A stretch of DNA of 64,000 nucleotides, from the sequence record OQ626344, one strand, 5' to 3'. The stretch comes from Escherichia phage S127 BCL3. The notes under the pieces are model-generated. The model did no database searches and was not told where the DNA came from. It worked only from the letters and a program-made list of their open reading frames with translations. Within the stretch, counting starts at the first letter, position 1. Each line of letters opens with the position of its first letter. A program made the translations under genes and the position numbers. Shown here in pieces: positions 1,847 through 1,942 of this stretch.

Positions 1847-1942
1847 GCTAGGTGATGGAATCGAACCACCTATGTATTCAACGACTACCTCGTCTATTTT
1901 CAGGATTAAAAATCCTCGCCCTTGCCAAAGGGCTTACCTAGC
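1847..1942 (-). tRNA. atypical tRNA-like gene with about 30-nt extra arm; anticodon ambiguous (UUU if loop is UUUUUAA)
   Basis: Perfect 7-bp acceptor GCTAGGT/ACCTAGC, D-arm GCCC/GGGC, T-arm GGTGG-TTCGATT-CCATC; anticodon stem AGGAT/ATCCT leaves only a 5-nt loop. Confidence 0.45.

What the first reader, a model, noticed from the sequence alone, without database searches (positions are those of the whole stretch)
1847..1942. Atypical tRNA-like gene with oversized extra arm and ambiguous anticodon
Seen in sequence: perfect 7-bp acceptor stem (GCTAGGT/ACCTAGC), canonical D-arm and T-arm, but the anticodon stem AGGAT/ATCCT encloses only 5 nt; opening one pair gives loop UUUUUAA (anticodon UUU). 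About 30 nt lie between anticodon and T stems, including stem GACGA/TCGTT. Inference: could be a non-canonical Lys-like tRNA, a tRNA with an insertion, a suppressor, or a decaying tRNA pseudogene.
Basis: partly seen in the sequence, partly recalled or inferred. Interest (0 to 1): 0.6.

Follow-up and report, generated by a model that had tools for sequence, protein, structure and literature searches.

The report
Conserved phage tRNA-like RNA lacking anticodon
This is a real, strongly conserved tRNA-shaped RNA gene found in the tRNA clusters of two subfamilies of large enterobacterial phages; it keeps the tRNA L-shape but has no proper anticodon loop, so it is probably a tRNA mimic, not a lysine tRNA or a dead gene.

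Summary
Window 1846-1942, on the minus strand, encodes a 97-nt cloverleaf inside the tRNA operon of an rV5-like (Vequintavirus) coliphage. It has a 7-bp acceptor stem, D and T arms, a 15-nt hairpin where a 17-nt anticodon arm should be, and a 31-nt extra region containing a hairpin.

It is not a pseudogene. I found one copy per genome across Vequintavirinae and Stephanstirmvirinae (about 29 distinct sequences). About 97% of stem cells pair, and 10-12 base pairs show double-sided compensatory changes. The tertiary elbow pair G19:C56 covaries to U19:A56. Within the window's own genus the gene varies as little as genuine tRNAs do (5% of sites, against 17-27% in spacers).

The "anticodon" hairpin never has a 5-bp stem with a 7-nt U33 loop. 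Its loop is 5-6 nt, its closing pair covaries (U-A to C-G), and its sequence changes between lineages. Genomes with canonical tRNA-Gly and tRNA-Lys still carry it. Two single-stranded tracts (GAAAA and AAUAC) are invariant around an extra hairpin that is swapped wholesale between lineages. Most copies encode U73-CCA.

Best reading: a non-decoding tRNA mimic matured like a tRNA, with an unknown partner. A nuclease-resistant tRNA-Lys reading is not excluded for this genus. The element is unannotated or inconsistently annotated, and it has no dedicated Rfam family.

The parts
1846..1942 (-). Element X: a 97-nt tRNA-like RNA gene. The 5' end G1 is at 1942 and the discriminator A is at 1846.
   Evidence: ARAGORN, Rfam tRNA 35.5 bits, cloverleaf MFE z = -3.66, model R1 105 bits.
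1936..1942 (-). Acceptor stem 5' strand, GCUAGGU. It pairs with 1847-1853.
   Evidence: 100% of cells paired; 5 of 7 pairs have double-sided changes across 25 sequences.
1847..1853 (-). Acceptor stem 3' strand, ACCUAGC.
   Evidence: The within-genus change at 1853 gives a U.G wobble.
1934..1935 (-). Linker A8-A9. A8 is invariant where canonical tRNAs have U8; position 9 is A or G.
   Evidence: Alignments A2 and A3.
1918..1933 (-). D arm GCCC-UUUGGCAA-GGGC. It can alternatively form a 6-bp stem with the 4-nt loop UGGC. It contains G18 and G19.
   Evidence: 3 of 4 stem pairs covary. RNAalifold prefers the 6-bp form. G19 covaries with C56.
1902..1916 (-). Hairpin 1, occupying the anticodon-arm position: AGGAU-UUUUA-AUCCU. 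It is 15 nt where a canonical arm is 17 nt.
   Evidence: Per-sequence dissection shows 5 bp plus a 5-6 nt loop in 27 distinct copies, with four different stem sequences and no conserved loop.
1895..1901 (-). 5' single-stranded tract GAAAAUA. GAAAA is invariant in every copy.
1880..1894 (-). Extra-arm hairpin GACGA-GGUAG-UCGUU. This module is hypervariable between lineages.
   Evidence: A-U changes to G-C in Avunavirus, and other genera carry unrelated hairpins of 3-9 bp.
1871..1879 (-). 3' single-stranded tract GAAUACAUA. AAUAC is invariant in every copy, and AAUACAUA is invariant in all Vequintavirinae.
   Evidence: The Stephanstirmvirinae copy has AAAUACGAAA.
1854..1870 (-). T arm GGUGG-UUCGAUU-CCAUC.
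   Evidence: 100% of cells paired; 3 of 5 pairs covary. C56 changes to A together with G19 to U in 8 of 24 sequences.
1843..1845 (-). 3' trailer CCU, a near-CCA. The next gene, tRNA-Thr, starts 6 nt after the discriminator.
   Evidence: 18 of 26 distinct orthologues encode U73-CCA.
2470..2498 (-). Sigma-70-type promoter P(tRNA), TTGACA-17-TAATAT, upstream of the Arg-Tyr-Ser-X-Thr-Met-Pro array.
   Evidence: Consensus scan. Annotated as P(tRNA) in the rV5 record. No terminator lies between it and X.
1600..1839 (-). Downstream co-transcribed canonical tRNAs: Thr(UGU), Met/Ile2(CAU) and Pro(UGG).
2041..2411 (-). Upstream co-transcribed canonical tRNAs: Arg(UCU), Tyr(GUA) and Ser(UGA).

Best explanation
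Element X is a functional, tRNA-derived non-coding RNA that folds into a tRNA-like L-shape but does not decode codons.

It is transcribed from the tRNA-cluster promoter as part of the polycistronic tRNA precursor. Like its neighbours, it is excised by RNase P at its 5' end and by 3' trimming. It ends in, or is repaired to, CCA.

Its anticodon arm is 1-2 nt too short, and its loop is neither 7 nt nor conserved. I therefore propose that it acts as a tRNA mimic. It would present the elbow, the acceptor end and a conserved purine-rich core with a protruding extra hairpin to a tRNA-recognising protein. That protein could be a host tRNA-targeting defence or toxin enzyme, or a tRNA-processing or tRNA-charging enzyme. 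X would act as a decoy or competitor.

Shown: gene reality, fold, selection, and absence of a canonical anticodon loop.
Inferred: transcription and processing, from operon position, the 2-6 nt spacing to adjacent tRNAs, and the encoded CCA.
Speculative: the mimic or decoy action and the identity of the partner.
For: (1) Family. There is one copy per genome in Vequinta-, Avuna-, Seuna-, Mydo- and Henunavirus and in metagenomic relatives. It also occurs in Stephanstirmvirinae. There are no hits in 185,579 bacterial species genomes or in 5,426 E. coli genomes.

(2) Structure under selection.
- On a MAFFT alignment of 24 distinct sequences, 97.7% of cells pair against 83% in shuffles. Ten pairs have double-sided changes, 0 of 500 shuffles reach this, and slid registers pair at 32-46%.
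- With Stephanstirmvirinae added, 12 of 20 pairs covary.
- RNAalifold independently returns the same cloverleaf.

(3) The tertiary pair G19:C56 changes to U19:A56 in 8 of 24 sequences, always together. This means the L-shaped elbow itself is selected.

(4) Within Vequintavirus, 5 of 97 sites vary and all five changes are structure-neutral. Six canonical tRNAs vary at 14 of 481 sites, and spacers vary at 17-27%. Between genera, X has diverged about as much as the adjacent tRNA-Thr.

(5) X is not a standard decoder.
- Hairpin 1 is 15-16 nt in all copies.
- Its closing pair covaries (U-A, C-G).
- The loops are UUUUA, UUAUA, CAUCCA, CAGCCA, CCUCCA, CUUCCA, CCUCAA and AUCAA. Position 33 is U, A or C.
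- ARAGORN finds nothing at X in Av-05, TH18, GE_vB_MG, PVP-SE1 or the Stephanstirmvirinae contig.
- PVP-SE1 and the Stephanstirmvirinae contig also carry canonical tRNA-Gly(UCC) and tRNA-Lys.

(6) tRNA-type maturation is plausible.
- X starts 2 nt after the CCA of the upstream tRNA in most genera.
- In the window it ends 6 nt before tRNA-Thr.
- U73-CCA is encoded in 18 of 26 distinct copies.
- It lies mid-operon with no terminator.
Against: - There is no expression, end-mapping or aminoacylation data for any copy.
- No binding partner is identified. The decoy idea rests on analogy.
- In Vequintavirus specifically, the hairpin can be read as a 4-bp stem with a textbook Lys loop UUUUUAA. This costs only about 1.5-2 kcal/mol over the MFE, similar to what genuine anticodon stem-loops (ASLs) in this operon pay.
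- The discriminator is A73 only in this genus, as LysRS prefers, and the phage has no other tRNA-Lys.
- In Seuna- and Mydovirus, the combination U73, G1:C72, C2:G71 and UCC/GCC in the loop resembles the GlyRS identity set (this comparison is from my own knowledge, not tested here). Charging, or even decoding, is therefore conceivable.
- A stoichiometric decoy against a catalytic enzyme would need unusually tight binding.
- Phage V18 has lost the 5' half of X and is viable, so X is accessory.
Confidence: 0.5

Rival explanations
1. In the Vequintavirus copy, including this window, X is a working tRNA-Lys(UUU) with a shortened 4-bp anticodon stem and an oversized variable region. LysRS would charge it through UUU and A73. 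It would replace host tRNA-Lys when anticodon or ASL nucleases such as PrrC, RloC or PARIS AriB destroy it, with its aberrant stem making it uncleavable.
For: - The loop can be written U32-U33-UUU-A37-A38 on the stem AGGA/UCCU.
- Rfam aligns it that way at 35.5 bits, and several GenBank submitters call it tRNA-Lys AAA.
- The energetic cost of that reading is small.
- A73 occurs only in this genus, and the window has no other tRNA-Lys.
- Precedent: T5 tRNA-Lys with anticodon-stem substitutions resists AriB, which cuts at positions 40/41 (PMC11464382).
Against: - The arm is one base pair shorter than in any standard elongator. The review PMC7609411 states that the anticodon stem is consistently 5 bp with a 7-nt loop.
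- The pair that must open is a covarying Watson-Crick pair in orthologues.
- The sister genus Avunavirus has UAU at the same position with U or C at 73, yet shows full structural conservation and compensatory changes elsewhere.
- All other lineages have 5-6 nt loops and no Lys anticodon.
- A8 replaces U8.
- There is no experimental evidence.
Confidence: 0.2
2. The tRNA body is only a scaffold that provides RNase P processing, CCA addition and stability. The active part is the swappable extra-arm hairpin, held between the invariant GAAAA and AAUAC tracts. It would act as a protein-binding or antisense module whose specificity differs between phages.
For: - There are at least six unrelated arm types.
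- The same body (GCAGGGUAGGCGG...) carries three different arms: LNA4/4MG, Mydo and FENT2/KPP-1.
- The same arm, with the conserved 12-nt loop GAACUAACAGUA, sits on three different bodies: pEa56, FENT2/KPP-1 and L037.
- The flanks are invariant across two subfamilies.
Against: - The Vequintavirus arm is only 5 bp with a 5-nt loop, which is little to act as an effector.
- Long variable arms of ordinary class II tRNAs also vary freely in sequence.
- No target complementarity was found; the loop-loop test was not significant.
- Selection on G19:C56 and on the D arm suggests the whole L-shape matters, not only the arm.
Confidence: 0.12
3. X is merely a processing or punctuation element. Its tRNA-like fold would be kept so that RNase P cuts the long precursor there and releases neighbouring tRNAs, and the excised RNA would have no function of its own.
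For: - It sits inside the tRNA operon, abutting neighbouring tRNAs.
- RNase P recognises the acceptor/T domain and the elbow. This is established knowledge and was not tested here.
Against: - Neighbouring tRNAs are themselves RNase P substrates, so no extra punctuation is needed.
- The invariant GAAAA and AAUAC tracts, hairpin 1, the encoded U73-CCA and the D-stem covariation are more than RNase P requires.
Confidence: 0.08
4. X is a selenocysteine-type or opal-suppressor tRNA, or a relic of one.
For: - Orthologues score best on Rfam tRNA-Sec: pEa56 37.6, Av-05 29.4, PVP-SE1 27.0 and Mydo 23.2 bits.
- A 6-bp D stem with a 4-nt loop is possible.
- The extra arm is long.
- The Henuna-like and Stephanstirmvirinae loop (C/U)AUCAAA differs from the Sec consensus CUUCAAA only at position 33.
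Against: - All scores are below the gathering score of 47.
- The acceptor/T arrangement is 7/5, not 8/5.
- The discriminator is U or A, not G.
- Position 33 is A.
- The window copy has no UCA.
Confidence: 0.04
5. X is a decaying tRNA pseudogene.
For: - The Rfam score is low.
- The anticodon arm is aberrant.
- Phage V18 has lost half of it.
Against: - 10-12 stem pairs carry compensatory double changes, about 97% of cells pair, and a tertiary pair covaries.
- Within-genus conservation equals that of real tRNAs and is 3-5 times tighter than in spacers.
- X is retained across two subfamilies.
Confidence: 0.02

Closest known systems
Canonical class II (long-variable-arm) bacterial and phage tRNAs: Ser, Leu, Tyr
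   Same: X has a 7-bp acceptor stem, a 5-bp T stem with a UUCGAUU loop, a D arm with G18 and G19, the G19:C56 elbow pair, a hairpin in the variable region, a position in a phage tRNA operon, and an encoded CCA in most copies.
   Different: - The anticodon arm is 15-16 nt instead of 17, and there is no conserved anticodon or U33.
- A8 and U14 replace U8 and A14.
- The variable region is 31-40 nt. Its hairpin is separated from the core by 7-9 nt conserved single strands on both sides, whereas a class II arm emerges directly from the core.
Phage T4 stable RNAs C and D (species 1 and 2; rnaC, rnaD)
   Same: They are small stable RNAs of unknown function encoded inside a phage tRNA cluster and co-transcribed with tRNAs. 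rnaC has a tRNA-like T arm and terminal stem.
   Different: There is no sequence similarity. T4 rnaC is 139 nt without a clean cloverleaf. X is a full cloverleaf with a D arm and covarying tertiary pair, and it belongs to a different phage lineage.
tRNA-Sec (Rfam RF01852) and allo-tRNAs (PMC5389517)
   Same: All have a long extra arm and a possible 6-bp D stem with a 4-nt loop. Some copies have a UCA-containing loop. tRNA-Sec is the best sub-threshold Rfam family for the orthologues.
   Different: X has a 7/5 acceptor/T arrangement, not 8/5, 9/4, 8/4 or 9/3. Its discriminator is U or A. Position 33 is A. Scores are below the gathering threshold. The window copy lacks UCA.
Phage T5 tRNA-Lys that neutralises PARIS (PMC11464382), and phage tRNAs with anticodon-loop changes that evade anticodon nucleases
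   Same: Both are phage-encoded, sit in a tRNA cluster and have an altered anticodon stem-loop. The window copy has a Lys-like UUUUUAA loop.
   Different: T5 tRNA-Lys is a canonical 5-bp/7-nt tRNA that decodes. X has a shortened arm, its loop is not conserved among orthologues, and no rescue has been shown.
Non-decoding viral and cellular tRNA mimics: gammaherpesvirus MHV68 tRNA-like RNAs, mascRNA, bacterial YrlA, plant-virus tRNA-like structures (recalled from general knowledge; not tested here)
   Same: They are tRNA-shaped RNAs processed by tRNA enzymes, and often CCA-tailed, that do not act as adaptors in decoding.
   Different: They belong to different organisms and have different architectures. 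No Rfam hit to any of them was found. X is closer to a complete cloverleaf than most of them.

Membership tests
Canonical elongator tRNA | 7-bp acceptor stem with an unpaired discriminator | tested here: met
   GCUAGGU/ACCUAGC plus A. 100% of cells pair in 25 sequences, and 5 of 7 pairs covary.
Canonical elongator tRNA | 5-bp T stem with a 7-nt T loop (UUCRANY), and a D loop with G18-G19 forming the elbow | tested here: met
   GGUGG-UUCGAUU-CCAUC. G19:C56 covaries to U19:A56 in 8 of 24 sequences.
Canonical elongator tRNA | 5-bp anticodon stem closing a 7-nt loop with U33 and a conserved anticodon | tested here: not met
   The hairpin is 15-16 nt, with a 5-6 nt loop on 5 bp. Alternatively it is 4 bp plus 7 nt in some copies. 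Position 33 is U, A or C, and the loop sequence differs between lineages.
Canonical elongator tRNA | U8 (pairing with A14) and a variable region of 4-5 nt (class I) or about 10-24 nt (class II) | tested here: not met
   A8 and U14 are invariant. The variable region is 31 nt in the window and up to 40 nt elsewhere.
Canonical elongator tRNA | Passes curated detection thresholds (Rfam RF00005 gathering score 29; ARAGORN with an assignable anticodon) | tested here: inconclusive
   The window copy scores 35.5 bits but ARAGORN gives tRNA-???. Orthologues are missed by ARAGORN, and their best hit is a sub-threshold tRNA-Sec match.
Canonical elongator tRNA | Aminoacylated and used on the ribosome | not testable with these tools
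   This needs charging assays, tRNA-seq and translation assays.
tRNA-Sec (RF01852) | 13-bp acceptor/T domain (8/5 in bacteria) | tested here: not met
   The arrangement is 7/5 in all copies. The T-stem 3' strand abuts the acceptor 3' strand.
tRNA-Sec (RF01852) | UCA anticodon in a 7-nt loop with U33, and G73 | tested here: not met
   The window loop is UUUUA. Henuna-like and Stephanstirmvirinae copies have UCA but with A33. The discriminator is U, A or C.
tRNA-Sec (RF01852) | 6-bp D stem with a 4-nt loop | tested here: inconclusive
   U14-A21 and U15-A20 could extend the stem, and RNAalifold does extend it. Both pairs are invariant, so covariation cannot confirm them.
tRNA-Sec (RF01852) | Rfam gathering score of 47 bits | tested here: not met
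   Orthologues score 23.2-37.6 bits.
allo-tRNA | 8/4 or 9/3 acceptor/T arrangement | tested here: not met
   X has a 7/5 arrangement. The definition is from the abstract of PMC5389517.
T4 rnaC / rnaD stable RNAs | Sequence or structure homology to T4 species 1 or 2 RNA | tested here: not met
   No similarity was seen by inspection, and the folds differ. Model R1 hits in the T4 locus are only canonical tRNAs, at 25 bits or less.
tmRNA / YrlA / other curated tRNA mimics | Match to the family model | tested here: not met
   ARAGORN finds no tmRNA. Permissive Rfam scans return only tRNA-clan models.

The most novel reading that the evidence does not exclude
X defines a previously undescribed family of phage tRNA mimics, shared by Vequintavirinae and Stephanstirmvirinae. 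It would be an L-shaped, CCA-ended RNA with a disabled anticodon arm, purine/pyrimidine-swapped core tertiary pairs (A8:U14, U15:A48) and a cassette-like specificity hairpin. It would act as an anti-defence decoy or inhibitor of a host tRNA-directed enzyme, or as an aminoacyl carrier outside translation. Its loop and arm would diversify in an arms race.
Probability: 0.3. Interest if true: 0.8.

Novelty: new variant of a known kind. Interest (0 to 1): 0.6.

Why it matters
- **Annotation.** Hundreds of sequenced therapeutic-candidate coliphages and Salmonella, Klebsiella, Cronobacter and Erwinia phages carry this gene. It is either not annotated, covered by spurious small ORFs, or labelled inconsistently (tRNA-Lys, tRNA-OTHER, tRNA-TERM, tRNA-???). 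A dedicated covariance model would fix that.
- **Biology.** X is a clean natural case of selection keeping the tRNA L-shape, down to a covarying elbow pair, while the decoding end is disabled. That points to a tRNA-shape-dependent function outside decoding.
- **Context.** Phage tRNAs are now known to counter tRNA-cleaving immunity such as PARIS, PrrC and retrons. A conserved non-decoding tRNA mimic is therefore a plausible new kind of counter-defence or host-manipulation RNA. It is also a tractable analogue of the T4 species 1 and 2 RNAs, whose function, as far as I know, is still unknown.
- **Engineering.** The swappable extra arm on an invariant scaffold could also be useful for RNA engineering.

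Tried and rejected
- **Loop-loop (kissing) pairing between hairpin 1 and the extra arm.** UCCA/UGGA occurs in several Seuna- and Mydovirus copies and GCCA/UGGC in 4MG. Four-nt runs are not significant against shuffled arms (P = 0.2-0.4) and are absent in most lineages. Rejected as a general feature.
- **ARAGORN's alternative fold.** It proposes an AUUUU/AAAAU stem with an 8-nt loop and a 4-base anticodon AUCC. It is not supported by orthologues, because AUCC is the 3' strand of a covarying stem.
- **The extra arm as the true anticodon arm.** Its loops are 3-14 nt and are never a conserved 7-nt loop.
- **Intrinsic terminator.** The only terminator-like hit is X's own D arm followed by the U-rich loop. 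It is absent in other lineages.
- **Homology to T4 rnaC or rnaD.** None found.
- **Recent capture of a host tRNA.** No BLAST match in E. coli genomes at E ≤ 10, and no pattern match in 185,579 bacterial species genomes.
- **Thermodynamic exclusion of the Lys reading.** This failed. Genuine ASLs in the operon pay similar penalties.
- **Literature.** Nothing describes this locus: the rV5 genome paper, Vequintavirinae papers, the structured-RNA catalogue, the non-canonical tRNA review, phage-tRNA counter-defence papers, and a transcriptomics search.
- **The 5'-half pattern scan of IMG/VR.** Most of the roughly 120 loci returned were false positives. Only the Stephanstirmvirinae copies were real.
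- **Model-guided alignment A4.** It still mis-registers the inner pairs of hairpin 1, so hairpin 1 rests on the per-sequence analysis.
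Full report
**1. What is at the coordinates**

The window is a Vequintavirus (rV5-like E. coli myovirus), 99.9% identical over the tRNA cluster to phages ECP32 and EduardKellenberger.

The finding lies on the minus strand at 1846-1942, inside a head-to-tail tRNA array. In transcription order the array is P(tRNA) promoter, Arg(UCU), Tyr(GUA), Ser(UGA), X, Thr(UGU), Met/Ile2(CAU), Pro(UGG).

Written as RNA, X is: GCUAGGU AA GCCC UUUGGCAA GGGC G AGGAU UUUUA AUCCU GAAAAUA GACGA GGUAG UCGUU GAAUACAUA GGUGG UUCGAUU CCAUC ACCUAGC A (CCU).

- ARAGORN reports tRNA-???.
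- Rfam's tRNA model gives 35.5 bits, just above its gathering score of 29.
- The single-sequence MFE is the cloverleaf, with z = -3.66.

**2. How others have annotated it**

GenBank records of close relatives label this locus tRNA-Lys (AAA), tRNA-OTHER, tRNA-???(atcc) or tRNA-TERM, or leave it blank. The original rV5 annotation and paper leave it blank and list six tRNAs.

In every other genus where I found it, the element is unannotated or overlaid by tiny "hypothetical protein" ORFs. The tRNA names under those BLAST hits belong to the upstream neighbour.

**3. It is a conserved family, not a one-off**

BLAST and pattern scans recovered one copy per genome in the following:
- Vequintavirus
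- Avunavirus (Av-05, TH18)
- Seunavirus (PVP-SE1, 4MG, LNA4, FENT2, NINP13076 and others)
- Mydovirus (Mydo, KPP-1, VIK251, DP)
- Henunavirus (pEa_SNUABM_56)
- several metagenomic contigs

A pattern built only on the 5' half, followed by a covariance model, added the phi92/phAPEC8-like Stephanstirmvirinae.

The model separates cleanly. Vequintavirinae copies score 97-117 bits, Stephanstirmvirinae copies 77 bits, and all canonical tRNAs at most 28 bits.

Nothing matched in 185,579 bacterial and archaeal species genomes or in 5,426 complete E. coli genomes. X is therefore phage-specific and not a recently captured host tRNA.

**4. The cloverleaf and the L-shape are under selection**

On a plain MAFFT alignment of 24 distinct sequences:
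- 97.7% of cells in the proposed pairs are standard pairs, against 83.3% after shuffling (0 of 500 shuffles reach this).
- Ten pairs show changes on both sides.
- Sliding the 3' partners by 1-3 columns drops pairing to 32-46%.

With Stephanstirmvirinae included, 12 of 20 pairs covary: acceptor 5 of 7, D stem 3 of 4, T stem 3 of 5. RNAalifold independently predicts the same structure.

The most telling result concerns the tertiary elbow pair. D loop UUUG**G**CAA with T loop UU**C**GAUU becomes UUUG**U**CAA with UU**A**GAUU in 8 of 24 sequences, and never one change without the other. Selection therefore acts on the three-dimensional tRNA fold, not merely on hairpins.

Within the window's own genus (7 distinct sequences), X varies at 5 of 97 sites. 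All five are structure-neutral: two wobble or Watson-Crick switches, two extra-arm loop bases, and position 9. The six canonical tRNAs vary at 14 of 481 sites, and the inter-tRNA spacers at 17-27%.

Between genera, X has diverged about as much as the neighbouring tRNA-Thr. The pseudogene reading is therefore rejected.

**5. It lacks what a decoding tRNA needs**

The hairpin at the anticodon-arm position is 15-16 nt in every copy, against the canonical 17.

| Stem | Loops |
|---|---|
| AGGAU/AUCCU | UUUUA, UUAUA |
| AGGUC/GACCU | CAUCCA, CAGCCA, CUUCCA, CCUCAA, CAUCA |
| GGGUC/GACCU | CCUCCA |
| GGGCU/AGCCY, and GGGCC/AGCCC or AGGCC/AGCCU (the last two with a C.A closing pair) | AUCAA |

- No copy has a 5-bp stem with a 7-nt loop.
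- Position 33 is U, A or C.
- The would-be anticodon differs between lineages (UUU, UAU, UCC, GCC, UCA).
- The Vequintavirus and Avunavirus copies differ by a single loop base that would switch Lys to Ile. Both lineages nevertheless keep the structure with compensatory changes elsewhere.
- PVP-SE1 and the Stephanstirmvirinae contig also encode canonical tRNA-Gly(UCC) and tRNA-Lys, so X is not filling those slots.
- A8 replaces the near-universal U8, with U14 opposite. U15 and the last base before the T stem (A) look like a similar swap of the 15:48 pair. Both are invariant, so covariation cannot test them.

One caveat applies. For the window copy, thermodynamics does not exclude a 4-bp stem with the loop UUUUUAA. 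That reading costs 1.5-2 kcal/mol over the MFE, and genuine ASLs in the same operon pay a similar price. The argument against decoding is comparative and geometric (an arm one base pair short), not energetic.

**6. Other conserved anatomy**

Directly after hairpin 1, GAAAA is invariant in all copies. Directly before the T stem, AAUACAUA is invariant in all Vequintavirinae, including those found by BLAST independently of my pattern. It reads AAAUACGAAA in Stephanstirmvirinae, so AAUAC is the universal core.

Between these tracts lies a hairpin that is replaced wholesale. There are at least six unrelated types, with 3-9 bp stems.

The same body carries different arms: Mydo and Klebsiella phage DP are identical outside the arm. 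The same arm, with the conserved loop GAACUAACAGUA, sits on three different bodies. This is a mosaic, cassette-like pattern.

Eighteen of 26 distinct copies encode U73-CCA. The window has A73-CCU. In most genera X starts 2 nt after the CCA of the preceding tRNA. In the window it ends 6 nt before tRNA-Thr.

**7. Comparison with known families**

- Rfam offers only tRNA-clan models. For orthologues the best is tRNA-Sec at 23-38 bits, below its gathering score of 47. The match is driven by a possible 6-bp/4-nt D arm, the long arm, and the loop CAUCAAA against the Sec consensus CUUCAAA. X fails the defining Sec features: a 13-bp acceptor/T domain, G73 and U33.
- It also fails the allo-tRNA definition of an 8/4 or 9/3 arrangement.
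- T4's rnaC and rnaD are the closest analogues in concept, being stable RNAs of unknown function in a phage tRNA cluster. They share no sequence or detailed structure with X.
- The T5 tRNA-Lys that defeats PARIS is the precedent for the rival reading, but it is a canonical tRNA.
- I found no paper describing X.

**8. Most likely mechanism**

Shown: X is a real, selected, L-shaped tRNA-family RNA gene without a canonical anticodon loop, located mid-operon.

Inferred: it is co-transcribed with the tRNAs from P(tRNA), cut out by RNase P and 3' trimming, and carries CCA.

Proposed (speculative): because decoding is disabled while the elbow, acceptor end and an elaborate conserved core are preserved, X works as a tRNA mimic. 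It would engage a tRNA-recognising protein as a decoy or competitor. Candidates are a host tRNA-directed defence enzyme or a tRNA-processing or tRNA-charging enzyme.

I put about 0.95 on "functional structured tRNA-like RNA", about 0.7 on "not a standard decoder", and about 0.5 on the combined mimic statement.

Rivals, with rough confidence:
- a nuclease-resistant tRNA-Lys in Vequintavirus only, 0.2. A73 plus UUUUUAA is a real coincidence in its favour.
- a tRNA-scaffolded effector hairpin, 0.12
- a pure processing signal, 0.08
- a Sec or opal-suppressor relic, 0.04
- a pseudogene, 0.02

Phage V18 has deleted Tyr, Ser and the 5' half of X. Like the phage tRNAs, X is therefore accessory, not essential.

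**9. Verdict**

The Lys anticodon and the pseudogene are probably wrong.
- It is best described as a new, uncatalogued variant within the known kind "non-canonical tRNA / tRNA-like phage RNA".
- It is of moderate-to-good interest because of its breadth, its strong structural selection, its disabled decoding end and its cassette-like arm. The function remains untested.

Noticed in passing
L167 4915-5409 (-) = Salmonella phage PVP-SE1 NC_016071, about 65.9-66.4 kb: The roughly 860-nt unannotated gap between X and tRNA-Leu holds a 164-aa ORF matching Pfam HNH_3 (35 bits). It is an unannotated homing endonuclease inside the tRNA cluster, like segB in T4.
   Followed up: partly
L167 3079-3164 (-) = PVP-SE1 gt009: An 86-nt gene annotated tRNA-Lys is reported by ARAGORN as tRNA-??? 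with a 4-base anticodon (ggca). This is a second odd tRNA in the same subfamily.
   Followed up: no
GenBank MG065635-MG065677 (hits): Eighteen records named 'Campylobacter phage' are 97-98% identical to rV5-like coliphages across the tRNA cluster. They are probably mislabelled, or are coliphage contaminants of Campylobacter phage preparations.
   Followed up: no
window 1688-1762 (-): Most annotators call the CAU-anticodon tRNA Met, but the BASEL records call it Ile (ATA). It may be a lysidine-dependent tRNA-Ile2, as in T4.
   Followed up: no
L006 = Escherichia phage V18 NC_041937, about 56.77-56.87 kb: V18 carries a deletion that removes tRNA-Tyr, tRNA-Ser and the 5' half of X, leaving only X's 3' 46 nt fused downstream of tRNA-Arg. 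X and these tRNAs are therefore dispensable for propagation.
   Followed up: partly
L001 2339-2513 = rV5 DQ832317 62714-62888: The rV5 record annotates tRNA-Arg as 175 nt, overlapping its own annotated promoter. This is an annotation error; the tRNA is 75 nt.
   Followed up: no
window 1943-2040 and 2132-2245: Two unusually long inter-tRNA spacers (98 and 114 nt) flank tRNA-Ser. The first has an inverted repeat, TTGACC...GGTCAA. The second has a promoter-like site at 2210-2181 on the minus strand. Both vary at 17-19% of sites within the genus, so they are probably not structured RNAs.
   Followed up: partly
Seunavirus and Mydovirus copies of X (L013, L014, L017, L018, L020): Hairpin-1 loop UCCA is complementary to UGGA in the extra arm. 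In phage 4MG both change, to GCCA and UGGC. This is a single possible loop-loop covariation, and it is not significant against shuffled arms.
   Followed up: yes
L001 1-497 = rV5 terminase region, adjacent to the cluster: The large terminase gene just downstream of the tRNA cluster is annotated as joined from three pieces (intron-containing). I did not examine it in the window.
   Followed up: no
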